Below, piece by piece: positions 1 through 9,704 of a stretch of 9,704 nucleotides of DNA (position 1 is the stretch's first letter; the number at the start of each line of letters is the position of its first letter). The translations under genes and the position numbers were made by a program. Under the pieces are notes generated by a model, which was given only the letters and a program-made list of their open reading frames with translations, had not been told where the DNA came from and ran no database searches. The DNA is from a virus. Taxonomy: Duplodnaviria; Heunggongvirae; Uroviricota; Caudoviricetes. Location of the stretch: IMG/VR virus record IMGVR_UViG_2541047165_000024; one strand, 5' to 3'.

Positions 1-1131
1 TCAAATGACCAGTTTTTTCCATTCCTTACCGCGTGCGTCGTTGTAAATATCGGTCATTTTTTGATTCGAATGGCCTAGCAAAATTTTGGTATCAACCCCC
101 TGCTCTCTGAACAATCGCTCTGATAAAGATCTCTGCTCATGGAAAGAGGGAGGGGTGCCATTAGCACGCCAGTTGTAATCCACAGAATCCCGGGCTTTTT
201 TAAATGCAACGGTTAATGTTGCTGGCTTAACCATCCCGCCGCGCTTAGCTGTCCCTTTCGCGTGATGGTGGTGCAATAGCCACGGACTAAGAACGCAATC
301 GCGGCAGGATGACACCACATCATCCAGGGTGAGATTTAATTTATCGCAACGCAGAGCCAGAGGGATGGCAATCCGGGTTCCTGTTTTTTGCTGTTCGACA
401 TGAAGATAACCATCCCGGATATCCGAAAATTGCATTTTGCAAATATCTGAAAGGCGCTGGCCTGTCATCAGTGCCAGCAGCATACCGCGCTGTAAAAAGT
501 AACCATCCTTTTCCGCTGCGTTATAAATCATCATCCACTCATCAAAAGTCAGTCGCTGTCTTGATATCCGCACCTGCGGTTTTTTTGCCGATTCTGCAGG
601 GTTAAAGCCTGGCGGGACATCGCCCGTTTGCTGAGCTTCCCGGAAAACATCGATCAGTACTTTCCTGAAAATTTGTCCCATTCTGTTATGTCCTCTGGCC
701 TTGTACTCTTCCAGTACTGATACCACATCTTTTACGGTTATGGCATCTAACGGTCTGGTGCCAAAACGTTCATCAAATACCCTGAGAGGGGCCGCTTTCT
801 GTTTCAGCGTGTTGAGTTTGATCTCGCCGTTTTCATATCTTTCCTGTTGAATTTTTCTGTAATTATTCAGAAAAATGGTAACGGTTGATGAACCGCCGGT
901 ATCACTAATAATTTTCTCCTGCAGACTGAGCATTTGTTCCATTTGCTGCCGGGCAAGACGGCTGTTCGCTTCTGCTGCAATAGTTTCTGCCAGTTTCTGG
1001 TCAATACTGCCGAGACCGTGATTTTTGCCTGTTATGGGATGCCTGTAACGCCAGTAAACTTTGTTATTTCTTTTGTCAAAATACGGAGATAATCCCGGAA
1101 CATCGGTTTTATATTTTCGCGGGCGCGCCAT
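1..1131 (-). CDS. int: Tyrosine-type site-specific integrase (phage integrase family), complete 376 aa
   Basis: Full-length minus-strand ORF whose stop codon is at bases 1-3. The C-terminal region has the catalytic-domain architecture typical of tyrosine recombinases (…LLGHSNQKMTDIYNDARG…). Its start overlaps the upstream xis-like ORF, the classical xis-int arrangement. Family assignment is from recalled motifs, not a search. Confidence 0.93.
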   Translation of the reverse strand: MARPRKYKTDVPGLSPYFDKRNNKVYWRYRHPITGKNHGLGSIDQKLAETIAAEANSRLARQQMEQMLSLQEKIISDTGGSSTVTIFLNNYRKIQQERYENGEIKLNTLKQKAAPLRVFDERFGTRPLDAITVKDVVSVLEEYKARGHNRMGQIFRKVLIDVFREAQQTGDVPPGFNPAESAKKPQVRISRQRLTFDEWMMIYNAAEKDGYFLQRGMLLALMTGQRLSDICKMQFSDIRDGYLHVEQQKTGTRIAIPLALRCDKLNLTLDDVVSSCRDCVLSPWLLHHHHAKGTAKRGGMVKPATLTVAFKKARDSVDYNWRANGTPPSFHEQRSLSERLFREQGVDTKILLGHSNQKMTDIYNDARGKEWKKLVI

Positions 1132-1357
1132 CTTCCAGTATCCTCTTCAAAGCAGGGTGATCTGTGGCGATCACCTCCGGCTTGTTTACCATTCCGACAA
1201 AGCGAGCTTGCGGATCCACTCGCCAGCGTCTTCCAACTTTTTTGGGGAGAGGAAATATCATTCCGGCTTTAGCGTATTTACTTAACGTACTCGGAGTTGG
1301 GACCGGTTCACTGAATTCCTCTTTTGCCCACTCAGTGAGCAGAATAAGTCTTGCCAT
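1109..1357 (-). CDS. xis: Excisionase-like small DNA-binding protein (Xis/AlpA-type)
   Basis: An 82-aa basic ORF immediately upstream of int on the same strand, overlapping the int start by 23 nt. Position and size fit a lambdoid excisionase. The exact start codon was not verified. Confidence 0.75.
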   Translation of the reverse strand: MARLILLTEWAKEEFSEPVPTPSTLSKYAKAGMIFPLPKKVGRRWRVDPQARFVGMVNKPEVIATDHPALKRILEDGAPAKI

Positions 1358-1421
1358 GAGCGTCGTTCGCTAATCATGGTCGCCGCCACTATAGCTGGTG
1401 GGCAACGACCGGGGTTGAACA

Positions 1422-1859
1422 TTAAAAATCAGCCTGATTCGGGATCAGTTTTTGCCAGATAACTGAAACGTATTTTGCCTGGTAACGGGCGTCATCAAGT
1501 GCATTATGGCGCTCACCTTCGAATGGAATAGCCGTTCTGGCATCGAAGTCTATGGCTTTCCCCAGCTCAACGATTGTGCGTACATCGCGATCGTTGTAGT
1601 AACGCCACGGGCAGGGGATCCCCTGCCGTTCGTATGAACGGCGCAAAATCGTGTTGTCGAAGTTGGCTCCATTTCCCCAGACCTGAACAAAAAATTCACC
1701 GGAGTTTTCGTCGATAAATTCCCGCAATTGTAACAGTGCATCATCTAACGGGATTTCATCGGTCATAATGGCAGATTGCGCTTCGCGTGATTGCTTAAGC
1801 CACCATTTAATGGTGTCCCTCGCCGTGTGCTTTCGTGTTGTGTGCCTGCTTTTTACCAC
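1422..1859 (-). CDS. DEDDh (DnaQ-like) 3'-5' exonuclease domain protein, apparently 5'-truncated (possible pseudogene or remnant)
   Basis: The translation contains an Exo II-like motif (VWGNGANFDNTIL) and an Exo III-like motif (HNALDDARYQAKY). No Exo I D-x-E motif is present. The frame opens with GTG at 1859, and translating upstream hits a stop after about 15 unrelated codons (around 1905-1907). The catalytic N-terminus therefore looks replaced by unrelated sequence. Confidence 0.65.
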   Translation of the reverse strand: MVKSRHTTRKHTARDTIKWWLKQSREAQSAIMTDEIPLDDALLQLREFIDENSGEFFVQVWGNGANFDNTILRRSYERQGIPCPWRYYNDRDVRTIVELGKAIDFDARTAIPFEGERHNALDDARYQAKYVSVIWQKLIPNQADF

Positions 1860-1883
1860 GTCAGGCGAGGTGGTCCCCGTTAT

Positions 1884-1929
1884 TCCCCAACAACAAGGAT
1901 CTTGTTAATCTGGATATCCCCAACAACAA
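1884..1929. repeat. Two direct copies of TCCCCAACAACAA spaced 33 bp apart, in the junction/promoter region upstream of the accessory ORF
   Basis: Read directly from the sequence: the 13-mer occurs at about 1884-1896 and 1917-1929. It sits between the truncated exonuclease and the divergent plus-strand ORF. Any function (regulator binding site or recombination scar) is inference. Confidence 0.6.
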
Positions 1930-1943
1930 TAAGAGTATTGAAT

Positions 1944-2459
1944 GTGATCGCTGAATTAACGGCAGCAATGACGGCTATTCGTGAAACCGCCCAGATTGCA
2001 AAACTAATGAACGAGGCAAAAACTCAAGCTGAAGTAAATGCGGCTATTGGTGAACTGAACTCAAAGCTTGCATCTATTCAGCGCGAATGCGTGTCTCTCG
2101 TTGAGCTGGTGGGCACTTATCAAGAAATAAATGCTTCTCTCAAAGCTAAAATTGCAGAATTTGAAAACTTTGAGGCTCAGACGGAAGGTTATATCCTTAG
2201 CCAACTTGAGTCGGGAACTTTTGTGTACTCGAAGGAGGTAACCGTGAACGGCGGCAGCATAATCATGCATCTTTGTCCAAAATGTTTTGGACAAAAGATA
2301 GTATCGATACTTCAGCCATTCCCGGTTAGAGAATATGAATTTTTTCATAAAAGCAGGTGCCTGTACTGTGAAAATCAGTTTCTTATGAATAAAAATCCGG
2401 ATTACGTATCACCTCCATCTATTGAAGAGTTGGCCAGAAAACTGAACGGCAATCTGTAG
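1944..2459 (+). CDS. Uncharacterised coiled-coil plus Cys4 zinc-ribbon protein (about 171 aa), candidate accessory or defence moron
   Basis: The long plus-strand ORF ends at TAG 2457-2459. The track's 1791 start overlaps the exonuclease gene and gives an implausible N-terminus. More plausible starts are GTG 1944 (preceded by AAGAG), TTG 1938 or ATG 1968. The N-terminal half is heptad-like and low in complexity (…AKLMNEAKTQAEVNAAIGELNSKLASIQRE…LKAKIAEFENFEAQ…). The C-terminal half carries CPKC and CLYC motifs about 25 residues apart. Codon composition is visibly AT-richer than the flanking genes, judged by eye and not computed. I recognise no named family. Confidence 0.6.
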   Translation: MIAELTAAMTAIRETAQIAKLMNEAKTQAEVNAAIGELNSKLASIQRECVSLVELVGTYQEINASLKAKIAEFENFEAQTEGYILSQLESGTFVYSKEVTVNGGSIIMHLCPKCFGQKIVSILQPFPVREYEFFHKSRCLYCENQFLMNKNPDYVSPPSIEELARKLNGNL

Positions 2460-2496
2460 ATTTTTACTGTTATGGATATCCAGATTGTTAAAGAGC

Positions 2497-2523
2497 ATGC
2501 CGGATGCTTGCTTGTGTCCGGCG
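2497..2523. terminator. Hairpin (GCCGGA-N12-TCCGGC) between convergent genes, a possible weak bidirectional terminator
   Basis: Inverted repeat at about 2499-2504 and 2517-2522, in the 114-bp gap between the plus-strand ORF (ends 2459) and the minus-strand small ORF (ends 2574). On the minus strand it is followed by AUGCUCUUU. There is no strong U-tract, so this is a weak call. Confidence 0.3.
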
Positions 2524-2573
2524 CGTGTGCACCACTCTCCCCCCGTGGAGGATTCCTTAATTACCAGATTTCA

Positions 2574-2804
2574 TTAGTCAGAGTTTCTTGCTAACCAGCG
2601 ACGCGCGCCAGATTCGGTTTTAAACGTTTTGCTTTTGGTATACGTCATCGCGGTGAACGTGCCGTCCTGGTTGGGAAACACGCCGCACACCAGAGATTCG
2701 TTGTTGCCAAGATCAAGAGTATCCATGCTGACCTCATATCCCCTTAACGCCGGGGTAGCGGAACAAAAACCTGCTGCATAGTTAAAGTTGAACCCTGCCG
2801 TCAT
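2574..2804 (-). CDS. Small hypothetical protein (76 aa), first gene downstream of the leftward pL-like promoter
   Basis: Minus-strand ORF with ATG at 2802-2804, preceded by GAGG about 9 nt upstream. It lies about 95 nt downstream of a near-consensus sigma-70 promoter that is overlapped by operator palindromes. It has no arginine-rich N-terminus, so it is not N-like. Function unknown. Confidence 0.5.
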   Translation of the reverse strand: MTAGFNFNYAAGFCSATPALRGYEVSMDTLDLGNNESLVCGVFPNQDGTFTAMTYTKSKTFKTESGARRWLARNSD

Positions 2805-2899
2805 GTTCTTACGCCTCGGGCTGGCTACTTAATCCCTGACCACTGCCGGGTAACTCTAGGTATTGCCCTGTATTGTGTGGGACGGGATGGGTTGGTATG

Positions 2900-2950
2900 G
2901 GAAAACTATAGGAAATGCCTAATTGCTTGTCAATAGGCTACGCCTAATGA
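2900..2950 (-). promoter_or_regulatory. Leftward pL-like promoter (-35 TTGACA, 17-bp spacer, -10 TATAGT) with overlapping operator sites (OL)
   Basis: On the minus strand the sequence reads TTAGGCgtaGCCTATTGACA-agcaattaggcatttcc-TATAGT. The -35 is at plus 2928-2933 and the -10 at 2905-2910. One operator palindrome abuts the -35 (about 2932-2947). A second TTAGGC half-site pair lies across the spacer and -10 (about 2908-2922). The layout is a mirror image of the cassette on the other side of the repressor gene. Confidence 0.6.
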
Positions 2951-3005
2951 TTTGGGTGCGACCTAATAGGTGATGGTTTGTGGGAGAGGTAGTAGGAGTT
3001 AACTA

Positions 3006-3027
3006 ACGGGAACTAGGAATTTCCCGT
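3006..3027 (-). terminator. Hairpin (ACGGGAA-N8-TTCCCGT) just downstream of the repressor stop, a candidate terminator or insulator
   Basis: Inverted repeat at 3006-3012 and 3021-3027, directly after the repressor stop (3042-3044) on the minus strand. The trailing sequence is only moderately U-rich (UAGUUAACU). Confidence 0.3.
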
Positions 3028-3041
3028 CGGACCATATAAGT

Positions 3042-3518
3042 TTAAGTTCCTGTCTTGGTGATGTTCTGGCTTTTCCGTTTTGATTCTTGATTTTTCAGAT
3101 AGTTAGCTACCTTCATTTCCATTGCGGCAATGTAGGCACGAACGTCATGATCAACCCAACTAGGCTCCGTAGCATTTCCAGATAAGAGGAAAGCCACAAT
3201 TGCTCTTTTTTCATCAGAGGCGGCTTGATAAAGGCTGTTTATGTCTAAAAGTTCACTTTTTGTATCTGAAGTGGATGGGGTTGGTATGGGGTATTCGTTA
3301 AGCCCCCAATGCTCTGGACCAACCACATCAGAAAAGAAACGCCATAGTTCTGGAAGTTTGTCTTTACTTATCGAACCTTTCTTAATCCAGTCATGGATTG
3401 ATGGTGGTTGGACTTTGAAATGACGTGCGATTTCCGCCTTTGATTTGACGGCTCCTGATGCAATTTTTTTGTTAATGGCCTGCTCTATCGCTCGGCCTAA
3501 GTCTTTACCACTAAGCAT
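3042..3518 (-). CDS. racR: Prophage immunity repressor, HTH (XRE/CI-like) without a LexA-type peptidase domain; RacR-like
   Basis: 158-aa ORF with an N-terminal HTH region (…KSKAEIARHFKVQPPSIHDWIKKGSISKDKLPELW…) and an AGGAGA RBS. It is divergent from a Cro-like gene and flanked on both sides by operator-bearing promoters. Size and context match the RacR position of Rac-type prophages. The symbol is given as a family-level analogy only. Confidence 0.85.
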   Translation of the reverse strand: MLSGKDLGRAIEQAINKKIASGAVKSKAEIARHFKVQPPSIHDWIKKGSISKDKLPELWRFFSDVVGPEHWGLNEYPIPTPSTSDTKSELLDINSLYQAASDEKRAIVAFLLSGNATEPSWVDHDVRAYIAAMEMKVANYLKNQESKRKSQNITKTGT

Positions 3519-3544
3519 TGCTTAATAGTCTCCTATGCGCATCG

Positions 3545-3616
3545 CATTAGGCAATACCTACTCTCGAAGCGTTAGGCATAGCCTATTGACAGTTGCATTA
3601 GGCTAAGCCTAATATT
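3545..3616 (+). promoter_or_regulatory. Rightward pR-like promoter (-35 TTGACA 3586-3591, -10 TAATAT about 3610-3615) with three operator-like palindromes (OR)
   Basis: Operators read from the sequence: TTAGGCaatACCTAC (about 3547-3561), TTAGGCataGCCTAT (3572-3586, abutting the -35) and the near-perfect TTAGGCtaaGCCTAA (3598-3612, overlapping the -10). This is a classical tripartite operator over divergent promoters. Confidence 0.65.
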
Positions 3617-3642
3617 ATTGTGTGTTTTTTGGAGTTCATTCG

Positions 3643-3966
3643 ATGAAAAAAGATAACTATTCATTCAAACGAGCTTGTGCTGTTGTCGGTGGGCAATCAG
3701 CAATGGCTAGGCTTTTAGGTGTATCTCCTCCAAGCGTAAATCAATGGATCAAAGGTGTACGTCAGTTGCCTGCTGAGAGATGTCCTGCGATTGAACGAGC
3801 AACAAAAGGTGGTGTCCTGTGTGAAGAACTTCGTCCTGATGTTGATTGGACATACTTACGACGCTCGTCATGTTATTCGCAGAATATGTCGATGAAGCAA
3901 CCAAATGACGAAAACGATCATACCCGAAGCATCAAGAGGCAAATGATTCATGAAAATCAAACATGA
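3643..3966 (+). CDS. ydaS: Cro-like HTH regulator of the YdaS type
   Basis: ATG at 3643 with GGAG 8 nt upstream. The track's GTG at 3622 gives an unlikely extension. The HTH region (…ACAVVGGQSAMARLLGVSPPSVNQWIKGVRQLPAERCPAIE…) is typical of Cro/YdaS-like proteins encoded divergently from the repressor. Confidence 0.8.
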   Translation: MKKDNYSFKRACAVVGGQSAMARLLGVSPPSVNQWIKGVRQLPAERCPAIERATKGGVLCEELRPDVDWTYLRRSSCYSQNMSMKQPNDENDHTRSIKRQMIHENQT

Positions 3967-4375
3967 GCACATCCGCATGGCGATGAATGCCTGGGCATAT
4001 CCTGATGGTGAGAAAGTTCCTGCAGCTGAAATAGCCCGGACTTATTTCGAACTGGGGATGACGTTCCCGGAACTGTACGACGACAGCCATCCGGAAGCCC
4101 TGGCTCGTAATACCCAGAAAATTTTCCGTTGGCTGGATAAAGACACCCCTGATGCTGTTGAAAAAATGCAGGCTCTGTTACCGGCGATCGAAAAGGCAAT
4201 GCCGCCTCTGCTGGTGGCCCGTATGCGCAGTCACAGCTCTGAATATTACCGTGAGATCGTCGAACGGAGGGATCGGCTGGTGAAAGATGTGGATGATTTT
4301 GTCGCAGCGGCGATCGCCTGGGGCACCCTGACTAACAGTGGGGGTCAGCCTGGTAATGCTGTTGTCGTGCATTGA
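3950..4375 (+). CDS. ydaT: YdaT-like protein (prophage toxin-like, repressor-controlled)
   Basis: 141-aa ORF overlapping the end of the ydaS-like gene by 17 nt, so probably translationally coupled. The N-terminus MKIKHEHI… and the position directly after the cro-like gene match the YdaT family of Rac-like prophages. Assignment is from recall, not a search. Confidence 0.78.
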   Translation: MKIKHEHIRMAMNAWAYPDGEKVPAAEIARTYFELGMTFPELYDDSHPEALARNTQKIFRWLDKDTPDAVEKMQALLPAIEKAMPPLLVARMRSHSSEYYREIVERRDRLVKDVDDFVAAAIAWGTLTNSGGQPGNAVVVH

Positions 4376-4437
4376 CCAACAATATTCATGCCGGATTTCT
4401 TCCGGATGTTCGAGGGTAAAGTTCGGTATCAGATGAG

Positions 4438-5481
4438 GTGAGTATGGCTAATGCCTGGCTCAGATTGTGGCATGACATGCCAAATGATCCCAAATGGCGA
4501 ACCATTGCCAGGGTCTCAGGACAGCCAATCGCAACAGTGATGGCGGTGTATATCCACCTTCTGGTGAGTGCGTCACGAAATGTCACGAAATGTCACGGCG
4601 AGTCACTACGTGGTCACATTGATGTCACGACGGAAGATTTAGCAAGTGCGCTTGATGTGACGGAAGACGTGATTGATTCAATTTTGCATGCAATGCAGGG
4701 GCGAGTTCTGGATGGCGATCTTATTTCCGGATGGGAAAAACGCCAGGTGATGAAGGAGGATAACGGTAATGTTTCGCAAACCGCAAAATCCCCGGCAGAG
4801 CGCAAGAGAGCGCAGCGGGAGCGGGAAAGACTGCGGGAGCAGAACACTGATTGTCACGATGAGTCACGACGCGTCACGCATATGTCACGACAAGTCACGA
4901 CAGATACAGATACAGATAAAGAATTAAACCCCACACATAACGCGCGCATGCGCGAGAGTGCTCCAGCCAGTGAGTCGAATGGCGCGCCGTTGCAGACAGC
5001 AGAACCTGAATACCCGGATGGCCTGAGCGAACCGATCGGGAAATTTCCGATGACTGGTGTCTGGCGGCCGTCGCTGGATTTTCGACAGCGGGCTGCATTG
5101 TGGGGTATGGCTCTGCCTGAGCCTGAGTTTACACCTGCTGAGCTTGCCGCATTCCGGGATTACTGGATGGCGGAGGGGAAGGTTTTCACGCAGGTTCAGT
5201 GGGAGCAGAAATTTGCCCGTCACGTGCAGCACGTCAGGGCACAGGTAAAACCAGTCAGCAAGGGGGTAAGCCATGCAGCACCAGGTGGCACCGCATCACG
5301 GGCAGTTCAGGAAATTCGGGCAGCACGTGAACAGTGGGAACGTGAAAACGGATTTATCAGCAACGGAAACGGCCTGGAAGCTGTGGGAACTTATGGGGGA
5401 GGTGTATTCGAACCGCTGGACCCAGAAGAACGGGGCTGCGCCGTCGAAGCTCTGGATTGCTCAGATTGGCGCGATGACTGA
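4438..5481 (+). CDS. Replication initiation protein (lambda O-like functional analogue or replisome organiser) with embedded origin iterons
   Basis: 347-aa ORF; the start is GTG 4438 or ATG 4444 after GAGGTG. It lies immediately upstream of a lambda P-like gene. The coding sequence contains two clusters of GTCAC repeats at helical spacing, the hallmark of an ori inside an O-type gene. Confidence 0.8.
   Translation: MSMANAWLRLWHDMPNDPKWRTIARVSGQPIATVMAVYIHLLVSASRNVTKCHGESLRGHIDVTTEDLASALDVTEDVIDSILHAMQGRVLDGDLISGWEKRQVMKEDNGNVSQTAKSPAERKRAQRERERLREQNTDCHDESRRVTHMSRQVTTDTDTDKELNPTHNARMRESAPASESNGAPLQTAEPEYPDGLSEPIGKFPMTGVWRPSLDFRQRAALWGMALPEPEFTPAELAAFRDYWMAEGKVFTQVQWEQKFARHVQHVRAQVKPVSKGVSHAAPGGTASRAVQEIRAAREQWERENGFISNGNGLEAVGTYGGGVFEPLDPEERGCAVEALDCSDWRDD
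4572..4628. repeat. Iteron cluster 1: six GTCAC(G) repeats at 10-11 bp spacing (putative ori component)
   Basis: GTCAC occurs at about 4572, 4582, 4592, 4602, 4613 and 4624, read directly from the sequence. Confidence 0.75.
4853..4918. repeat. Iteron cluster 2: five GTCACGA repeats at 10-11 bp spacing, followed by (ACAGAT)x3 and an A/T-rich stretch (putative ori core)
   Basis: GTCACGA occurs at about 4853, 4863, 4873, 4884 and 4894. It is followed by cagatacagatacagataaagaattaaa. Confidence 0.75.
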
Positions 5482-5935
5482 ACAGCAAATCCGGCAGGTC
5501 TGCCGTCAGTGCATGGACCGCTGCCGGGCGGGTGAAACGTGGCCTCCGGACCTGGCTGAGTTTGTGGCGTTGATTTCGGAGAGCGGGGCAAATCCATTTG
5601 GCCTGACGGTGGATGCCGTGATGGAGGAGTACCGTCGCTGGAGGAATGAATCCTGGCGGTACGACGGGAGTGATAAATACCCGTGGCCACAGCCGGTGCT
5701 GTACCACATTTGCCTCGAGATGCGTGACAGAGGGATTGAGCGGCAGATGACGGAAGGTGAGTTAAAACGACTTGCAGAACGGCAACTGACGAAATGGGCA
5801 AAGCAAGTTGGTAACGGGATGAGTATTCCCCCGATCCGGAGACAACTCGCATCGCCGAAGTGCCCGCAAGGGCCAACGCCAATTGAATTACTGAAACAGG
5901 AATACGAGCGCCGGAAGGCGGCTGGTTTTGTTTGA
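5273..5935 (+). CDS. Lambda P-like replication protein (helicase loader)
   Basis: ATG at 5273 is preceded by a strong AAGGGGG SD. The C-terminal half aligns by eye with lambda P (ours: WPPDLAEFVALI…DKYPWPQPVLYHI…MTEGELKRLAERQL; lambda P: LPSPGQFVAWC…ESYPWKSNAHYWL…LTDAELRRKAADEL). It overlaps the 3' end of the O-like ORF by about 209 nt in another frame. Confidence 0.8.
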   Translation: MQHQVAPHHGQFRKFGQHVNSGNVKTDLSATETAWKLWELMGEVYSNRWTQKNGAAPSKLWIAQIGAMTEQQIRQVCRQCMDRCRAGETWPPDLAEFVALISESGANPFGLTVDAVMEEYRRWRNESWRYDGSDKYPWPQPVLYHICLEMRDRGIERQMTEGELKRLAERQLTKWAKQVGNGMSIPPIRRQLASPKCPQGPTPIELLKQEYERRKAAGFV

Positions 5936-5968
5936 ATCTGAGAAACGATTTTGTCGGAGGAAATTTTA

Positions 5969-6685
5969 ATGGAAACCGTATCTGACGCACTGAAAGCACT
6001 GAAAAGAGCCTCTTCACATGTGGTGGCAGCTCGCCTTGGAATTAGTCGTGAAGAGGCTGTCAACGAACTGTGGAAACTGAAACGCCGTGGAGAAGCGGAT
6101 AACAAGGGGGCGATATGGTGGCTGACTCAGGCTGGTGAAAGTGAACCGGTGTCACCGGTACCGAAAGTGACGGCGCAAATGCTGACAGAGGCGATTGAAC
6201 AACATGGCCCACAAACGGCGGATGAACTGGCATTGATGTTCGGAATTACCTCCCGCCGGGCGAATTCATCGCTGGCAATGGCAATCAGCAAAGGGTGTCT
6301 GATTCGCGTGAATCAGGATGGTAAATTTCGTTACTGCATACCGGGCGTTGATTTACCGGCAGAGCCGAAAGCAGCATCCGTAGCTGAAACGGAGGGTAAA
6401 GCCCTTCCTCAGCCAGCTGGTGTTGCGTTACCAGTCCAGGAAACGGCTGCACAGGAAGAAATTAAAACAGAAGCGGTGGAGGACATTGTGAAGTTGCAGC
6501 AATCGTTCACTGAAGCGAAAGCAGATGACCTGATTCTACCATCGCTGCATGTGGCTAACCGCGAGCTGCGCCGGGCGAAAAGTAATGTTCAGAAGTGGGA
6601 GCGAGTCTGTGCTGCGCTACGGGAACTGAACAAACACAGGGATATTCTCCGGGATATTACCGCCACCAGAGAGCAGCAGCGGTGA
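5969..6685 (+). CDS. Hypothetical protein with two winged-helix-like repeats
   Basis: ATG at 5969 with GGAGG 8 nt upstream; the track's TTG at 5951 is unlikely. Two internal segments resemble each other (…[23 protein letters not shown]… and …[31 protein letters not shown]…). No Walker motifs are present. Confidence 0.65.
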
Positions 6686-6999
6686 GTGGCTGGAAGAAGT
6701 GGCGCTGGGCTGAAATCCTGATACTCCGGCAGTGTGCGGGAACGATGAGAGTCGAAAGCATCGGTTATCTGATTGGCCGTAGTGAGTCAGCCGTCAGGAC
6801 GAAAGCGCGGGAACTGGGTATCAGCATGATGTTACGGGGTGATTATCACCAGTCAGCCAAATGTTCACAGCGTGATATTGAGCTGGCGTGGCAACTGCAT
6901 CAGCGTGGTGTACCCCGACGGGAAATTGCCGAAAAGTTTGGGATGAAGTTGGGCGCAGTGAATAACTACGTTTATTTCGACAGGAGGGTTCAGGAGTGA
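6682..6999 (+). CDS. Small hypothetical protein with two HTH-like segments (possible DNA-binding)
   Basis: A GTG start at 6682 overlaps the upstream stop (GTGA), giving about 105 aa. The track's ATG at 6595 lies inside the upstream gene. The start choice is inference. Confidence 0.5.
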
Positions 7000-7298
7000 G
7001 GGTGAGGGTTTATATCGCCGGTCCGATGACGGGATATGAAAATTTTAACCGCGAGGCATTTCACAAAACGGAAGAGGTGCTGAAACGGGAAGGGCATACC
7101 GTTTTAAACCCGGCAGTACTTCCGGACGGGCTGACTCAGCCACACTACATGGATATTTGCATGGCAATGCTCCGTTGCGTGGATGCGGTTTACATGCTGA
7201 AAGGCTGGCAGCAGTCGGCAGGTGCAGGGGCTGAGCTGGCACTGGAGGAGAAACCGGGCCATGCGGTGATTTTTCAGGAGGTGGGCAGTGAATATTGA
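6996..7298 (+). CDS. DUF4406-like (nucleoside 2-deoxyribosyltransferase-like fold) protein
   Basis: N-terminal motif VYIAGPMTG…NFNREAF…VLNP, typical of this Rossmann-like family common in prophages. GTG start with GGAGGG upstream. Confidence 0.72.
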   Translation: MRVRVYIAGPMTGYENFNREAFHKTEEVLKREGHTVLNPAVLPDGLTQPHYMDICMAMLRCVDAVYMLKGWQQSAGAGAELALEEKPGHAVIFQEVGSEY

Positions 7299-7605
7299 CC
7301 CGGCGATAACGATTGATATGGCCCTGAACGCCGGCCTGGCACTTCTTGGTTATTTCTACATTATGTTCTGCAGCGGACGATGGCTGTCACTGTTGTTCAT
7401 GAAAAAATGGAATAAACGCCGTAAGCAGGAGCAACGCCAGAAGGCAATGGATGCATTTTTCGAAGCCTTCGGAATTGACGGCATGGAACCAGGGGATCCA
7501 GCTCGCGCAATCAGCAGAGGGGGTGTAGTAATCCTTGTATATCGGAGTGAAGAGAAAAATGACGATCACAAAACAACGTGTAGAAGAAATCATATCCCGC
7601 ATTGA
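7288..7605 (+). CDS. Small predicted membrane protein (single hydrophobic helix followed by a basic stretch)
   Basis: GTG at 7288 with AGGAGG 6 nt upstream. Hydrophobic segment ALNAGLALLGYFYIMFCSGRWLSLLF followed by KKWNKRRKQEQRQK. The 3' end overlaps the next ORF, so the true extent is uncertain. Confidence 0.45.
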   Translation: MNIDPAITIDMALNAGLALLGYFYIMFCSGRWLSLLFMKKWNKRRKQEQRQKAMDAFFEAFGIDGMEPGDPARAISRGGVVILVYRSEEKNDDHKTTCRRNHIPH

Positions 7606-7876
7606 AATGTATGGACATGGTGCAGGGTATATCGCAGACGAGGTTAATGATCTGGCTATACTGGCGCTGAATTTATCAAATATCGCGAACCTGAAGCGAT
7701 ACGAGCTTGATATGGGAGGTTGCGACTCGTGCGGTCAGGATTGTGGCGCTGATATGACTGAAGATCCTGATGGTGATTATGTCCTGTTTGATGACGTGGT
7801 TAAGTTGTTTGAATTTGATACAACCACTCAAAAGTTAGAAATCCCGGCAAAGGAGGCAGCCAGTGGGCAAGATTGA
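7559..7876 (+). CDS. Hypothetical phage protein with an acidic C-terminus
   Basis: ATG at 7559 after GAAGAG; the track's TTG at 7535 is less likely. No recognisable motif. Confidence 0.55.
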   Translation: MTITKQRVEEIISRIEMYGHGAGYIADEVNDLAILALNLSNIANLKRYELDMGGCDSCGQDCGADMTEDPDGDYVLFDDVVKLFEFDTTTQKLEIPAKEAASGQD

Positions 7877-8300
7877 CTATCAGGCACTGCGTGAGGCAGC
7901 ACAAAACTATCAATCGACGCTGGCGTGGTATCAGGCTACCCCGGACAGCCCAAATGCTGAACGGGATTGTGATGCGGCTCTTGCTGCGTTTAAGCGTCAC
8001 ATCCGTCATCGGGAAGCGGATATTATCGCTGATTTGCTGGATGGACTGGAAGAAGCAAAATCACAACTCAACGAGCAGCGTGAGTATTACGAAGGCGTTA
8101 TCTCTGATGGGAGCAAGCGTATTGCTGAACTGGAAGCGCGGGAAGTTCAATTACCGACTCGCTACGACCTTCGATATGGACACCCGATAAATGCAGATGA
8201 GCGACATGTCATGATACCTAAAGAAAATGGCAGTTGGCTTTACCTGATTGACCTAGAACACGCATTACGCGTCGCTGGCATTCGCATCAAAGGAGAGTGA
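7863..8300 (+). CDS. Hypothetical coiled-coil phage protein (Ea22-region-like)
   Basis: GTG at 7863 with AAGGAGG 6 nt upstream. It overlaps the upstream stop and is tightly packed with its neighbours. Confidence 0.65.
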   Translation: MGKIDYQALREAAQNYQSTLAWYQATPDSPNAERDCDAALAAFKRHIRHREADIIADLLDGLEEAKSQLNEQREYYEGVISDGSKRIAELEAREVQLPTRYDLRYGHPINADERHVMIPKENGSWLYLIDLEHALRVAGIRIKGE

Positions 8301-8301
8301 G

Positions 8302-8493
8302 ATGAACGGACAAATATCAATTGTTCGACCAGGAGCATGTGACGATCGCGAAATACGAATGATTATTCGTCTGGCGATGGGGAAAACAATAACTGCTCTC
8401 ATTACTCCAGAAAATCTCGCATTAGCATTAACAGGAAAGTCAGACATGCCAGTAGAGCTAAAGCTGCGAAATGTTGAGATTAAGGTGAAATAG
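8302..8493 (+). CDS. Small hypothetical phage protein (63 aa)
   Basis: ATG at 8302 with AGGAG 6 nt upstream, 1 nt after the previous stop. Confidence 0.6.
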   Translation: MNGQISIVRPGACDDREIRMIIRLAMGKTITALITPENLALALTGKSDMPVELKLRNVEIKVK

Positions 8494-8495
8494 CT

Positions 8496-9083
8496 ATGAC
8501 CACTATTACCAAAGATCGACTGCTGACAATCCAGCATTGGCGCGAAACATACGGACCGGGTAGCAACGTTGTGCTTCCAGCAGAAGAAGCGGAAGAGCTG
8601 GCACGGATTGCGCTGGCATCACTGGCAGCAGTATCGGATGAACGAGCAGCCTATGAATTATTTATGGAGAAGCGTTTCGGAGAATCTGTAGATCGCCGCA
8701 GAGCAAAAAATGGCGATAGAGATTACATGGTATGGGATATGGCGCTTGGCTGGATTATCTGGTGTCACCGCGCCGCCATGCTTCAGGCTGGAAACTTTCG
8801 GGAAAATAAGGGTTCGTCAACCAATAATTTTCGGGAAATCTCGGAAACGTCAACCAACTATCCGGTAACTCCGGATGGTTGGATAAGCTGTAGTGAGCGA
8901 ATGCCGGATGATGGTCAGCACGTAATTATTTTATGTGATGGCGCATTCGTTCTTTATGCGCAATATCGAGACGGTGAGTTTTTTGATGTAGTCCGTAATG
9001 GTGATGAATTTTTCGAAACACAGAGCCGCAATGTAACCGACTGGATGCCGCTACCAGAACCGCCGCAGGAGGTGCGCCAATGA
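8496..9083 (+). CDS. DUF551-domain phage protein
   Basis: The C-terminus carries the characteristic DUF551-type motif (…WISCSERMPDDGQHVIIL…NVTDWMPLPEPP). ATG at 8496 with AAGGTG upstream. Confidence 0.75.
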   Translation: MTTITKDRLLTIQHWRETYGPGSNVVLPAEEAEELARIALASLAAVSDERAAYELFMEKRFGESVDRRRAKNGDRDYMVWDMALGWIIWCHRAAMLQAGNFRENKGSSTNNFREISETSTNYPVTPDGWISCSERMPDDGQHVIILCDGAFVLYAQYRDGEFFDVVRNGDEFFETQSRNVTDWMPLPEPPQEVRQ

Positions 9084-9163
9084 TCTGGCCTGAAGCCTTT
9101 GCAATTACAGGCGTTGCTATAGCTATTGATTTTTTAGTATATGTTATTTGTCGGTGGGGGTAA
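9080..9163 (+). CDS. Putative 27-aa hydrophobic peptide (MIWPEAFAITGVAIAIDFLVYVICRWG)
   Basis: Not in the ORF track because it is under 60 aa. ATG at 9080 overlaps the upstream stop (ATGA) and has AGGAGG 7 nt upstream. Predicted single transmembrane helix. Confidence 0.35.
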   Translation: MIWPEAFAITGVAIAIDFLVYVICRWG

Positions 9164-9198
9164 AAACGTTCGCCGGGATTCACACCAAAGGAGGGAAT

Positions 9199-9303
9199 AT
9201 GTCGGATGATATTTCACTGGCAATGGAAGGTGCGCTGGCTGTTATTGCTGTTGTGGGCGTTTACTGCCTGGTTGTGTTTTTGATGGATCGACTAGGGAAC
9301 TGA
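9199..9303 (+). CDS. Putative 34-aa hydrophobic peptide (MSDDISLAMEGALAVIAVVGVYCLVVFLMDRLGN)
   Basis: ATG at 9199 preceded by AAGGAGGG; stop TGA at 9301-9303. Predicted single transmembrane helix. Too short for the ORF track. Confidence 0.4.
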   Translation: MSDDISLAMEGALAVIAVVGVYCLVVFLMDRLGN

Positions 9304-9311
9304 ATTCATTA

Positions 9312-9333
9312 CGATATGGGAATTCCCATATCG
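9312..9333. repeat. Perfect 22-bp palindrome CGATATGGGAATTCCCATATCG
   Basis: Read directly from the sequence. It lies 9 bp after the stop of the 34-aa peptide ORF and upstream of the hok leader. It is not followed by a T-tract. Function unknown; it may be a protein-binding site or an RNA hairpin. Confidence 0.7.
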
Positions 9334-9434
9334 GGTAAAAACGGTTTGCGGTAAAGCGAGAGTTAAGTAGAATTGCTGCGGGTGCTTGAGGCTGTCTGCC
9401 TCGGGCATGCCACCGTAAGGTAGACAGAGAAAAG

Positions 9435-9505
9435 CCCCAGTTAACATTACGCGTCCTGCAAGACGCCTAACATTAATCTGAGGCCAATTTCATGCTAGAC
9501 ACATG
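9435..9505 (-). ncRNA. sok: Predicted sok-like antisense RNA of the hok locus
   Basis: This is inference. A candidate minus-strand promoter (-35 TTGCCT at plus 9530-9535, 17-bp spacer, weak -10 TAACCT at 9507-9512) would start a transcript near 9500. That transcript would be antisense to the mok SD (GAGG about 9480-9483) and start codon (9492), as in hok/sok loci. The 3' end and terminator were not identified. Confidence 0.3.
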
Positions 9506-9704
9506 TAGGTTAGCCTCTTACGCGCCGAAAGGCAAGGAGAAGCAGGCTATGAAGCAGCAAAAGGCGATGTTAATCGCCCTGATCGTCATCTGTATCACCG
9601 TCATAGTGACGGCACTGGTAACGAGGAAAGACCTCTGCGAGGTACGAATCCGAACCGGCCAGACGGAGGTCGCTGTCTTCACAGCTTACGAACCTGAGGA
9701 GTAA
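9492..9704 (+). CDS. mok: mok-like reading frame (in-frame N-terminal extension overlapping hok)
   Basis: ATG at 9492 with GAGG 8 nt upstream. It reads in frame through hok to the same stop, consistent with the mok/hok arrangement in which mok translation is coupled to hok expression. Confidence 0.65.
   Translation: MLDTCRLASYAPKGKEKQAMKQQKAMLIALIVICITVIVTALVTRKDLCEVRIRTGQTEVAVFTAYEPEE
9549..9704 (+). CDS. hok: Hok/Gef family type I toxin (HokD/RelF-like), 51 aa
   Basis: Translation MKQQKAMLIALIVICITVIVTALVTRKDLCEVRIRTGQTEVAVFTAYEPEE is unmistakably Hok/Gef family. ATG at 9549 with AAGGAGA 8 nt upstream. The stop TAA is the last codon of the window. Confidence 0.92.
   Translation: MKQQKAMLIALIVICITVIVTALVTRKDLCEVRIRTGQTEVAVFTAYEPEE

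What the first reader, a model, noticed from the sequence alone, without database searches (positions are those of the whole stretch)
9340..9704. Apparently complete mok/hok/sok-type type I toxin-antitoxin locus at the right edge
The Hok toxin is unmistakable and is preceded by an in-frame mok-like extension with its own SD. A minus-strand promoter-like sequence is positioned so that its transcript would be antisense to the mok SD and start, the defining geometry of sok. Many chromosomal hok loci are inactivated by insertions or rearrangements. This copy retains its upstream leader, so it may be functional. The 3' end of the hok mRNA, including the fold-back element, lies beyond the window.
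Basis: partly seen in the sequence, partly recalled or inferred. Interest (0 to 1): 0.5.

Follow-up and report, generated by a model that had tools for sequence, protein, structure and literature searches.

The report
Intact prophage hok/sok toxin-antitoxin cassette

Summary
Confirmed and already known. [quoted passage not shown]
- a weak hok promoter;
- the hok mRNA leader (Rfam RF01794, 114 bits against a cut-off of 59);
- the tac, ucb and dcb boxes;
- a mok ORF (9492-9704, in frame with hok) with its own SD;
- the hok CDS (9549-9704; Pfam HOK_GEF, E = 2e-23);
- a convergent sok gene on the minus strand (about 9500 to 9430), with promoter hexamers identical to those of the tested sokW of phage 933W/Sp5.

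The window stops at the hok stop codon. In O157:H7 genomes identical over 1413-9704, the flank supplies the fbi box, complementary to the mRNA 5' end, and a terminator. The tac/fbi pairing covaries across 108 intact homologues.

The cassette is 92% identical to hokW-sokW, a proven TA pair. It is the intact counterpart of K-12 hokD/relF, which has lost everything upstream of the hok SD.

RefSeq annotates the CDS as hokD. O157 genomes are known to carry 12-18 hok copies.

One side observation may be worth more. The 22 nt that encode the Sok 5' tail are about five times more variable than the rest of the cassette, which fits paralogue orthogonality.

The parts
9345..9373 (+). Putative hok promoter: -35 TTTGCG (9345-9350), 17-nt spacer, -10 TAGAAT (9368-9373). 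It is weak by consensus, as expected for hok.
   Evidence: Read from the sequence. The -10 is invariant among 70 close relatives and the region is conserved with 933W. Not called by the consensus scan.
9380..9391 (+). hok mRNA 5' end and tac element, GGGUGCUUGAGG.
   Evidence: First position of the Rfam RF01794 match. Pairs with the fbi box in the full-length MFE fold. Covaries with fbi at tac positions 4 and 12.
9392..9427 (+). 5' leader hairpin. It overlaps the partner of the alternative metastable tac hairpin (9382-9392 with 9398-9408).
   Evidence: Folds. Compensatory changes at 9394:9425, 9383:9407 and 9391:9399 in 87 distinct leaders.
9432..9440 (+). ucb, the anti-SD box AAGCCCCAG. It pairs with the mok SD in the full-length (closed) mRNA and with tac in the 3'-truncated (open) mRNA.
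   Evidence: The tac/ucb helix is the first helix of the Rfam consensus.
9430..9500 (-). Predicted Sok antisense RNA, about 71 nt: a roughly 9-16 nt single-stranded 5' tail, then a long hairpin followed by CUUUU.
   Evidence: Coordinates transferred from the annotated sokW of 933W. Fold -32.9 kcal/mol, z = -6.3. Stem covariation at 9442:9475 and 9443:9474. The transcript itself has not been observed.
9480..9483 (+). mok Shine-Dalgarno GAGG.
   Evidence: 8 nt upstream of the mok ATG. Invariant. Pairs alternately with ucb and dcb.
9485..9506 (+). Sok 5'-tail / target-loop / mok-start segment, the hypervariable recognition stretch.
   Evidence: Mean pairwise difference 0.306 against 0.064 for the whole cassette; 0 of 5000 permutations reach this value. 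Co-resident paralogues differ by 27-41% here and 2-8% elsewhere.
9492..9704 (+). mok reading frame, 70 codons, in frame with hok and sharing its stop codon.
   Evidence: Same length and layout as the annotated mokW. The in-frame arrangement is found in 84 of 108 intact homologues.
9507..9535 (-). sok promoter: -10 TAACCT (reverse complement of 9507-9512), 17-nt spacer, -35 TTGCCT (reverse complement of 9530-9535). The + strand of 9513-9517 (GCCUC) is the dcb box.
   Evidence: Hexamers identical to sokW. Primer YO-421 of PMC8621323 changes this -10, and the resulting construct lost antitoxin activity. SD/dcb pairing holds in 87 of 87 leaders.
9536..9539 (+). hok Shine-Dalgarno GGAG.
   Evidence: 9 nt upstream of the hok ATG. 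Homology with K-12 hokD begins here.
9549..9704 (+). hok toxin CDS, 51 aa, annotated in RefSeq as hokD (WP_001303917.1).
9687..9690 (+). TACG motif at the Tyr47 codon, a candidate TadA A-to-I (Tyr to Cys) editing site.
   Evidence: Sequence. Editing at the equivalent Tyr codon of K-12 hokD is reported in PMC5630033. K-12 hokD is identical over this stretch.

Best explanation
This is a complete hok/mok/sok type I toxin-antitoxin cassette of about 460 bp, from window ~9337 to about 95 nt past the window end. It sits in the early/nin region of a Rac-like lambdoid prophage of E. coli O157:H7.

Proposed mechanism. Steps 1-5 are inferred from sequence, folds, covariation and homology to R1 hok/sok and hokW-sokW. 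None has been shown for this copy.

1. A weak promoter (TAGAAT at 9368-9373) makes a stable hok mRNA of roughly 420 nt starting at G9380.
2. While the mRNA is nascent, tac (9380-9391) is held in a local metastable hairpin. In the full-length RNA it pairs with fbi in the 3' UTR. Meanwhile ucb (9432-9440) sequesters the mok SD (9480-9483). The mRNA can then be neither translated nor bound by Sok.
3. Slow 3' trimming removes fbi. tac re-pairs with ucb, and the mok SD moves into the SD/dcb hairpin (9480-9484 with 9513-9517). This exposes the mok start region.
4. While the cassette is present, the unstable Sok RNA of about 71 nt (9500 to 9430 on the minus strand, from TTGCCT-17-TAACCT) binds through its 5' tail. 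It blocks mok translation, and hok translation with it because the two are coupled. The duplex is then degraded.
5. If Sok supply stops (loss of the element, transcription arrest or prophage induction), the truncated mRNA is translated. Hok, a 51-aa inner-membrane peptide, depolarises and kills or lyses the cell.

The likely physiological role is stabilisation of the prophage and/or help with lysis on induction.
For: - Family and leader: Pfam HOK_GEF E = 2.4e-23. Rfam RF01794 114 bits over 9380-9554.
- tac/fbi: the full-length MFE pairs 9380-9391 with CCUCAA-GCACCC 50-62 nt after the stop codon. The fold scores -174.7 kcal/mol, z = -7.7. An intrinsic terminator follows.
- Alternative folds: 3'-truncated folds give tac/ucb, SD/dcb and the metastable hairpin.
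- Homologues: almost all of the 108 intact homologues from IMG/VR and GTDB genomes show a tac/fbi duplex at the same place. Compensatory changes occur at tac position 4 (U-A to C-G) and position 12 (G-C to A-U). Covariation is also seen in the metastable, 5' hairpin, ucb/SD and Sok stems.
- Sok: stable hairpin with z = -6.3. Promoter hexamers are identical to sokW.
- Experiment on the closest relative: hokW-sokW is 92% identical in DNA and 90% in Hok protein. It is a working TA pair. Mutating this same -10 abolishes protection, and sokW RNA is seen on Northern blots (PMC8621323).
- 3' end: the whole cassette including the 3' end is found at >=99% identity in 357 complete E. coli records.
- The R1 mechanism is summarised in PMC9841398.
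Against: - No transcript, processing or killing data exist for this copy.
- The sok and hok promoters fall below the threshold of the simple consensus scan.
- The fbi box and terminator lie outside the window, and no complete RefSeq genome contains the whole window in one piece. The 3' end is therefore inferred from genomes identical over 1413-9704.
- The host prophage carries pseudogenes (exonuclease, RusA, a DUF6645 fragment). An induction-linked role may therefore not apply.
Confidence: 0.87

Rival explanations
1. The cassette is structurally intact but physiologically silent. It is transcribed and kept off, and never delivers a killing dose. In that case it is a selfish passenger that spreads with lambdoid prophage modules and serves no maintenance, lysis or defence role. 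Full toxicity might also need TadA editing of Tyr47 to Cys.
For: - Intact chromosomal hokA, hokB and hokC failed to give PSK or rifampicin activation (cited).
- The promoters are non-consensus.
- O157 carries 12-18 hok copies, so any one copy is redundant.
- An editable TACG codon sits at 9687-9690, and K-12 hokD is edited there.
Against: - All regulatory pairings are preserved with compensatory changes. The hok CDS is nearly invariant, with pairwise difference 0.016. Both point to ongoing selection.
- The sister cassette hokW-sokW has measurable phenotypes from its native prophage (PMC8621323).
- A single chromosomal copy of R1 hok is lethal without Sok (PMC9841398).
Confidence: 0.25
2. The main role is induction-coupled lysis assistance, as for hokW-sokW, rather than addiction. 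The cassette is co-oriented with the early rightward operon (replication genes, then nin, then Q). Read-through on induction would run against the convergent sok promoter and lower Sok, releasing Hok.
For: - hok lies on the same strand as the DnaT-like and P replication genes upstream and the DUF968 and RusA genes downstream.
- In Sp5, sokW RNA disappears and HokW appears after mitomycin C in a RecA-dependent way, and phage yield halves without the locus.
Against: - The transcriptional-interference step is pure inference.
- This prophage looks defective.
- hokW sits in a different part of the 933W genome, so the position is not conserved.
Confidence: 0.3
3. The cassette acts as an abortive-infection, phage-exclusion module. 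Host transcription shut-off by an infecting lytic phage depletes Sok and triggers Hok.
For: R1 hok/sok on a high-copy plasmid reduced T4 plating and plaque size (cited in PMC8621323). hok genes are enriched about four-fold in prophages.
Against: hok is not enriched near defence systems. The T4 effect was modest and was obtained at high copy number. No data exist for this clade.
Confidence: 0.15

Closest known systems
hokW-mokW-sokW of Stx2 phage 933W / Sakai prophage Sp5 (AF125520; Takada et al. 2021, PMC8621323)
   Same: - 92% DNA identity from the hok promoter to fbi.
- Same 213-nt in-frame mok and 51-aa Hok (90% identical).
- Identical sok -35 and -10 hexamers, tac, ucb, dcb and fbi boxes, and the same extended Sok hairpin.
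   Different: - 6 of 22 positions differ in the Sok 5'-tail/target stretch. Predicted duplex energy for the 16-nt tail is -25.0 kcal/mol with the cognate target and -11.2 with the hokW target.
- The Hok C-terminus differs (FTAYEPEE here, FVDYESEK in HokW).
- The sequence after fbi differs: this copy has a clean GC hairpin and T-run terminator.
- The position in the phage genome differs: the nin region here, beyond the late genes in 933W.
hokD (relF) of E. coli K-12 cryptic prophage Qin
   Same: The toxin is 98% identical (one conservative difference, I16 here and L16 in K-12). The hok SD, 3' UTR, fbi and terminator are nearly identical. RefSeq therefore names this CDS hokD.
   Different: In K-12, homology starts only at the hok SD. 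The hok promoter, tac, ucb, the Sok gene and promoter, and the mok start are replaced by the end of relE. The copy studied here is the intact form and is not next to relBE.
hok/sok (parB) of plasmid R1, the paradigm
   Same: Same set of elements and the same alternative pairings: tac/fbi, ucb/SD, tac/ucb, SD/dcb and the metastable 5' hairpin. The Sok gene is convergent, with its promoter inside mok.
   Different: - HokW is 44% identical to R1 Hok, so this Hok is at a similar distance.
- From my recollection of the R1 sequence, which I did not check here, mok is out of frame with hok in R1. It is in frame here. All three frame arrangements occur among the homologues examined.
- The Sok hairpin here carries an insertion of about 16-24 nt relative to the Rfam consensus.
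- The carrier is a prophage, not a plasmid.
gef / hokC of E. coli (orf69 leader)
   Same: A chromosomal hok-family locus. The 933W record describes mokW as similar to 'Gef + leader'. From my own knowledge, its mok-equivalent (orf69) is an in-frame N-terminal extension of the toxin.
   Different: It belongs to a different Hok subfamily. From my own knowledge, hokC in K-12 is inactivated by an IS element; I did not test this here.

Membership tests
hok/sok (Hok/Gef) type I toxin-antitoxin family | Small hydrophobic Hok/Gef toxin of about 50 aa | tested here: met
   Pfam PF01848 E = 2.4e-23, 81.9 bits against a cut-off of 22, covering profile positions 1-42 of 42. The NCBIfam Hok subfamily models match below their curated cut-offs (48 bits against 73).
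hok/sok (Hok/Gef) type I toxin-antitoxin family | Overlapping mok reading frame with its own SD upstream of hok | tested here: met
   ORF 9492-9704 with GAGG at 9480-9483. A mok ATG is present in 107 of 108 intact homologues. Translational coupling cannot be tested with these tools.
hok/sok (Hok/Gef) type I toxin-antitoxin family | hok mRNA leader with the conserved sequence and structure | tested here: met
   Rfam RF01794 114.1 bits (gathering score 59), full model 1-157. The match is on the hok (+) strand, because the model describes the leader that contains the Sok target.
hok/sok (Hok/Gef) type I toxin-antitoxin family | cis-encoded antisense Sok gene: a convergent promoter inside mok, complementarity to the mok translation-initiation region, and a hairpin terminator | tested here: met
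   TTGCCT-17-TAACCT is identical to the mutationally validated sokW promoter. Hairpin -32.9 kcal/mol, z = -6.3, followed by CUUUU. This is sequence-level evidence only. The consensus scan is negative.
hok/sok (Hok/Gef) type I toxin-antitoxin family | Long-range tac/fbi pairing between the mRNA 5' end and the 3' UTR | tested here: met
   tac lies in the window. fbi lies 50-62 nt past the window end in genomes identical over 1413-9704. The pairing appears in the MFE fold, and compensatory changes are seen among 28 distinct tac/fbi combinations. The actual source genome could not be inspected.
hok/sok (Hok/Gef) type I toxin-antitoxin family | Alternative ucb/SD (closed) and tac/ucb plus SD/dcb (open) pairings, and a metastable 5' hairpin | tested here: met
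   All four pairings appear in full-length or truncated folds. They are kept in 73-87 of 87 distinct leaders, with covariation at 9439:9479, 9383:9407 and 9391:9399.
hok/sok (Hok/Gef) type I toxin-antitoxin family | Expressed Sok RNA, 3' processing of hok mRNA, RNase III cleavage of the duplex, and killing when Sok is lost | not testable with these tools
   Shown for R1 (PMC9841398) and in part for hokW-sokW (PMC8621323). Not shown for this copy.
hokD/relF locus of E. coli K-12 (the name RefSeq gives the CDS) | Same locus: downstream of relBE in the Qin prophage, and lacking mok and sok | tested here: not met
   Here the gene follows a DUF551 gene and small ORFs in a Rac-like prophage next to potC, and it keeps the full leader. 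K-12 homology starts at the hok SD. The name reflects 98% protein identity, not the same locus.

The most novel reading that the evidence does not exclude
The 22-nt stretch 9485-9506 encodes the Sok 5' tail, the loop of its target and the first mok codons. It may be a specificity determinant under diversifying selection. That would keep the many hok/sok cassettes co-resident in poly-lysogenic genomes such as O157:H7 from cross-neutralising one another, so each prophage keeps its own private addiction or lysis switch.

Sok and its target are read from the same DNA, so any mutation there keeps cis complementarity while reducing cross-reaction in trans.

The data show that the stretch is about 5 times more variable than the cassette average and about 3.4 times more variable than the 3' UTR segment (0.089). 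The terminator stretch (0.136) is the next most variable after it. Co-resident paralogues differ by 27-41% in this stretch and by 2-8% elsewhere.

The neutral alternative is not excluded. This may simply be the only weakly constrained stretch in a heavily constrained RNA. Discrimination by variable recognition domains is, from my own knowledge, already known for the Sib/Ibs type I family. I did not find it reported for hok/sok, and the 2026 Hok survey states that it left Sok and mok unanalysed.
Probability: 0.45. Interest if true: 0.4.

Novelty: already known. Interest (0 to 1): 0.12.

Why it matters
The main value is correct annotation. RefSeq marks only the Hok CDS under the misleading name hokD. 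It omits mok, Sok and the mRNA boundaries.

The copy is a clean natural example of what K-12 hokD/relF looked like before the rearrangement that removed its leader. It adds one more intact cassette to the 12-18 hok loci of EHEC, where such modules may stabilise prophages or tune lysis and phage release, including Shiga-toxin phages.

The hypervariable Sok-tail stretch gives a directly testable handle on how many paralogous antisense-controlled toxins can coexist without cross-talk.

Tried and rejected
- Consensus promoter scan of the locus. It returned no sigma-70-like site, so neither the hok nor the sok promoter is called. I rely instead on identity to the mutationally tested sokW promoter.
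- Finding the exact source genome. No complete RefSeq E. coli genome holds the window in one piece. Positions 1413-9704 match the potC prophage of O157:H7 at 100%. Positions 1-1450 match a different prophage of the same genomes at 100%. The 3' flank is therefore taken from genomes identical over 1413-9704.
- Reading the copy as orthologous to K-12 hokD. Rejected: only the hok SD, CDS and 3' UTR are shared.
- Reading the + strand Rfam 'sok' hit as a sense-strand Sok gene. Rejected: the model spans the hok leader as far as the hok ATG.
- A decayed or IS-disrupted copy. Rejected: there are no interruptions, and leaderless forms are seen only in other loci (L007, L008, L048, L086, L110, L131, L139).
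- NCBIfam gave only sub-threshold Hok subfamily hits. Pfam found nothing for the two small upstream ORFs.
- MMBR review PMC2593563 is not held.
- I did not retrieve the other hok copies of the same O157 genome, because the search tool lists one place per record. Within-genome comparisons therefore used S. flexneri SFBU1023 and IMG genome 643348545.
- The TadA-type hairpin around A9688 is weak in a 29-nt fold (-3.3 kcal/mol). I did not pursue it.

Full report
**What is in the sequence**

The last 360 nt of the window contain a 51-codon ORF at 9549-9704. Its product is MKQQKAMLIALIVICITVIVTALVTRKDLCEVRIRTGQTEVAVFTAYEPEE. It matches Pfam HOK_GEF over the whole profile (E = 2.4e-23, 81.9 bits, cut-off 22).

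An ATG at 9492 lies 57 nt upstream in the same frame. It opens a 70-codon ORF that ends at the same stop codon. GAGG at 9480-9483 lies 8 nt before it. GGAG at 9536-9539 lies 9 nt before the hok ATG.

Rfam's only gathering-level hit in the whole window is RF01794 ('sok'). It covers 9380-9554 on the + strand at 114.1 bits, against a gathering score of 59 (E = 5e-26), and spans the full model. The model describes the hok mRNA leader that contains the Sok target. That is why the hit is on the hok strand.

The window ends at the hok stop codon.

**Where the window comes from**

Positions 1413-9704 are 100% identical to a prophage next to potC in many E. coli O157:H7 genomes (TR01, EC4115, TW14359 and others). 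The gene order there is:
- integrase, excisionase, RacR, a YdaT-family protein;
- DnaT-like and P replication proteins;
- a string of small early genes, including DUF551;
- two small hydrophobic ORFs;
- hok;
- DUF968, a RusA pseudogene, then lysis and terminase genes.

hok is co-oriented with the early rightward genes. RefSeq annotates only the CDS, as 'hokD' (WP_001303917.1).

Positions 1-1450 match a different prophage of the same genomes. No complete genome holds the window in one piece. The source is therefore a mosaic variant, and the 3' flank has to be inferred.

**The missing 3' end**

In the identical genomes, the stop codon is followed by three features:
- a stable hairpin (GGCGAGGGAGAAAUCCCUCGCC);
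- the box CCUCAACGCACCC, 50-62 nt after the stop;
- an intrinsic terminator, AACCCGCTTCGGCGGGTTTTGTTTTTT.

The box is the complement of the mRNA 5' end, GGGUGCUUGAGG (9380-9391), with a one-base bulge. The minimum-free-energy fold of the 420-nt RNA closes the molecule with exactly this 5'/3' helix (-174.7 kcal/mol, z = -7.7). The full cassette including this 3' end occurs at >=99% identity in 357 complete E. coli records. The fold-back element is therefore intact wherever this sequence has been seen.

**The regulatory switch**

The R1 mechanism is summarised in PMC9841398. It has four parts:
- tac/fbi locks the full-length mRNA.
- ucb sequesters the mok SD.
- 3' trimming lets tac pair with ucb and lets the SD pair with dcb.
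- A metastable 5' hairpin prevents translation during transcription.

All four pairings are present here. In the full-length fold, GCC-CAG (9434-9440) pairs with CUG-GGC (9478-9484) across the mok SD. In truncated folds, GGG-GCUU (9380-9387) pairs with AAGC-CCC (9432-9438), which is the first helix of the Rfam consensus. GAGGC (9480-9484) pairs with GCCUC (9513-9517). GUGCUUGAGGC (9382-9392) can also pair with GCCUCGGGCAU (9398-9408).

**Comparative support**

One scan of IMG/VR and one of GTDB genomes returned 140 loci. Of these, 108 have an intact leader. In almost all of the intact loci, the 5' end forms a duplex with a box 40-55 nt after the stop codon.

Among 28 distinct tac/fbi combinations, position 4 switches between U-A and C-G, and position 12 between G-C and A-U. 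In 87 distinct leaders, compensatory changes also occur in these helices:
- the metastable hairpin (9383:9407 U-A/C-G; 9391:9399 G-C/G-U/A-U);
- the 5' hairpin (9394:9425);
- the ucb/SD helix (9439:9479 A-U/G-C);
- the Sok stem (9442:9475 and 9443:9474).

Loci whose aligned 5' end lacks tac also lack the pairing. These include the K-12-type hokD copies L086, L131 and L139.

**Sok**

On the minus strand, TTGCCT (reverse complement of 9530-9535), a 17-nt spacer and TAACCT (reverse complement of 9507-9512) point to a start near 9500. The 933W record annotates sokW at the equivalent place, which transfers to 9500-9430 in this window.

The predicted 71-76 nt RNA has a free 5' tail and a long hairpin followed by CUUUU (-32.9 kcal/mol, z = -6.3). 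The hairpin carries an insertion relative to the Rfam consensus. That insertion is shared by 56 of 87 relatives.

The simple consensus scan does not call the promoter. However, both hexamers are identical to those of sokW. In PMC8621323 the 'pro-less' construct was made with primer YO-421, whose sequence changes exactly this -10. That construct lost protection against HokW. Protection was partly restored by sokW supplied in trans, and sokW RNA was detected by Northern blot.

**Relation to known loci**

Homology to hokW-mokW-sokW of 933W/Sp5 runs from about 9337 to just past fbi at 92% identity, and stops there on both sides. The unit is therefore a discrete cassette of about 460 bp placed in different phage contexts.

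K-12 hokD (relF) shares only the hok SD, the CDS (one conservative amino-acid difference) and the 3' UTR with fbi and terminator. Everything upstream is the end of relE. The copy studied here is thus the intact form of the gene that K-12 holds as a remnant.

hok-like sequence is found in 4723 of 5426 complete E. coli genomes, with a median of 2 places and up to 10 at megablast sensitivity. The literature counts 12-14 Hok genes in EDL933 and Sakai (PMC2887945) and up to 18 in an O157:H7 chromosome. It also reports four-fold enrichment of hok in prophages (bioRxiv 10.1101/2025.08.07.668861).

**Function**

What is shown here is sequence-level completeness and evolutionary maintenance of every element. 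What is inferred is activity.

In favour of activity:
- The sister cassette works from its native prophage. It speeds lysis and doubles Sp5 release after mitomycin C.
- A single chromosomal R1 hok is lethal without Sok.

Against activity:
- Intact chromosomal hokA, hokB and hokC gave no post-segregational killing.
- The promoters are non-consensus.
- This prophage has pseudogenes.

I put 0.87 on 'bona fide complete hok/sok cassette working by the R1 mechanism'. I leave the physiological role open between prophage addiction, lysis assistance and exclusion.

**Side observations**

- Among 69 distinct close cassettes, mean pairwise difference is 0.306 in 9485-9506 and 0.064 overall. It is 0.016 in the hok CDS and in the mok SD, and 0.017 in fbi. 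No 22-nt window in 5000 site permutations reaches the observed value.
- Co-resident paralogues differ by 27-41% in that stretch and 2-8% elsewhere.
- The 16-nt Sok tail of this copy is predicted to bind its own target at -25.0 kcal/mol and the hokW target at -11.2 kcal/mol. This fits orthogonality between paralogues, but relaxed constraint on a loop is not excluded.
- The mok frame varies across the family: in frame at 57 nt in 84 of 108, a long +1 ORF at 58 nt, or a 19-codon ORF at 56 nt. This agrees with the view that the act of translating mok matters, not the Mok product.
- Tyr47 is encoded by TAC within TACG (9687-9690), the TadA editing motif reported for K-12 hokD.
- A perfect 22-nt palindrome lies at 9312-9333, just outside the cassette.

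**Verdict**

The finding is a textbook element that is already catalogued, so interest is low. The only lead with some novelty is the hypervariable Sok-recognition stretch.

Noticed in passing
window 9485-9506: The stretch encoding the Sok 5' tail, the target loop and the first mok codons is by far the most variable part of the cassette. Pairwise difference is 0.306 against 0.064 overall, and 0 of 5000 permutations reach this value. At least 8-10 alleles sit on backbones that are otherwise more than 80% identical. Paralogues within one genome differ by 27-41% here and 2-8% elsewhere.
   Followed up: partly
window 9312-9333: A perfect 22-nt palindrome, CGATATGGGAATTCCCATATCG, lies immediately left of the cassette border. 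It has no adjacent T-run on either strand. It is present in 18 of 143 fetched loci, always about 216 nt upstream of the hok ATG. Its function is unknown; it could be a protein-binding site or an RNA hairpin that insulates hok from upstream transcription.
   Followed up: partly
window 9080-9163 and 9199-9303: Two small hydrophobic ORFs lie between the DUF551 gene and hok. One is 27 aa (MIWPEAFAITGVAIAIDFLVYVICRWG), whose ATG overlaps the DUF551 stop codon. The other is 34 aa (MSDDISLAMEGALAVIAVVGVYCLVVFLMDRLGN; RefSeq hypothetical WP_001278450.1). Neither has a Pfam hit. 933W has a related small ORF (MTWPEA...ICRWR) directly before hokW (primer YO-432).
   Followed up: no
window 9687-9690: The Hok Tyr47 codon TAC sits in a TACG motif, the TadA A-to-I editing site (Tyr to Cys) reported for K-12 hokD, hokC and hokE (PMC5630033). 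Editing could add a second cysteine to pair with Cys30. A short local fold puts the motif in a loop, but the hairpin is weak (-3.3 kcal/mol).
   Followed up: partly
window 1-1412 versus 1413-9704: The integrase/excisionase end of the window is 100% identical to a different prophage of the same O157:H7 genomes (for example TR01 1679541-1680990). The rest matches the potC prophage. No complete RefSeq E. coli genome holds the window in one piece, so the source is a mosaic or recombinant lambdoid prophage.
   Followed up: partly
L001 2123-2524, 11915-12148 and 12144-13445 (the O157:H7 TR01 prophage that matches the window): The host prophage carries a truncated 3'-5' exonuclease, a truncated RusA and a DUF6645 fragment fused after it. 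It is probably defective.
   Followed up: no
loci L003-L142 (hok homologues): The mok reading frame is not fixed across the family. It is in frame with hok at -57 nt in 84 of 108 loci. In the others it is a long +1-frame ORF at -58 nt, or a 19-codon ORF at -56 nt that ends near the hok start. One locus has no mok ATG.
   Followed up: yes
H26, Actinobacillus phage vB_Apl-pPE4 (PP818812.1) 13180-13556: A phage record attributed to Actinobacillus pleuropneumoniae carries a hok cassette 93.7% identical to this E. coli one. This is odd for a Pasteurellaceae host and may indicate an E. coli-type phage or a host misassignment.
   Followed up: no
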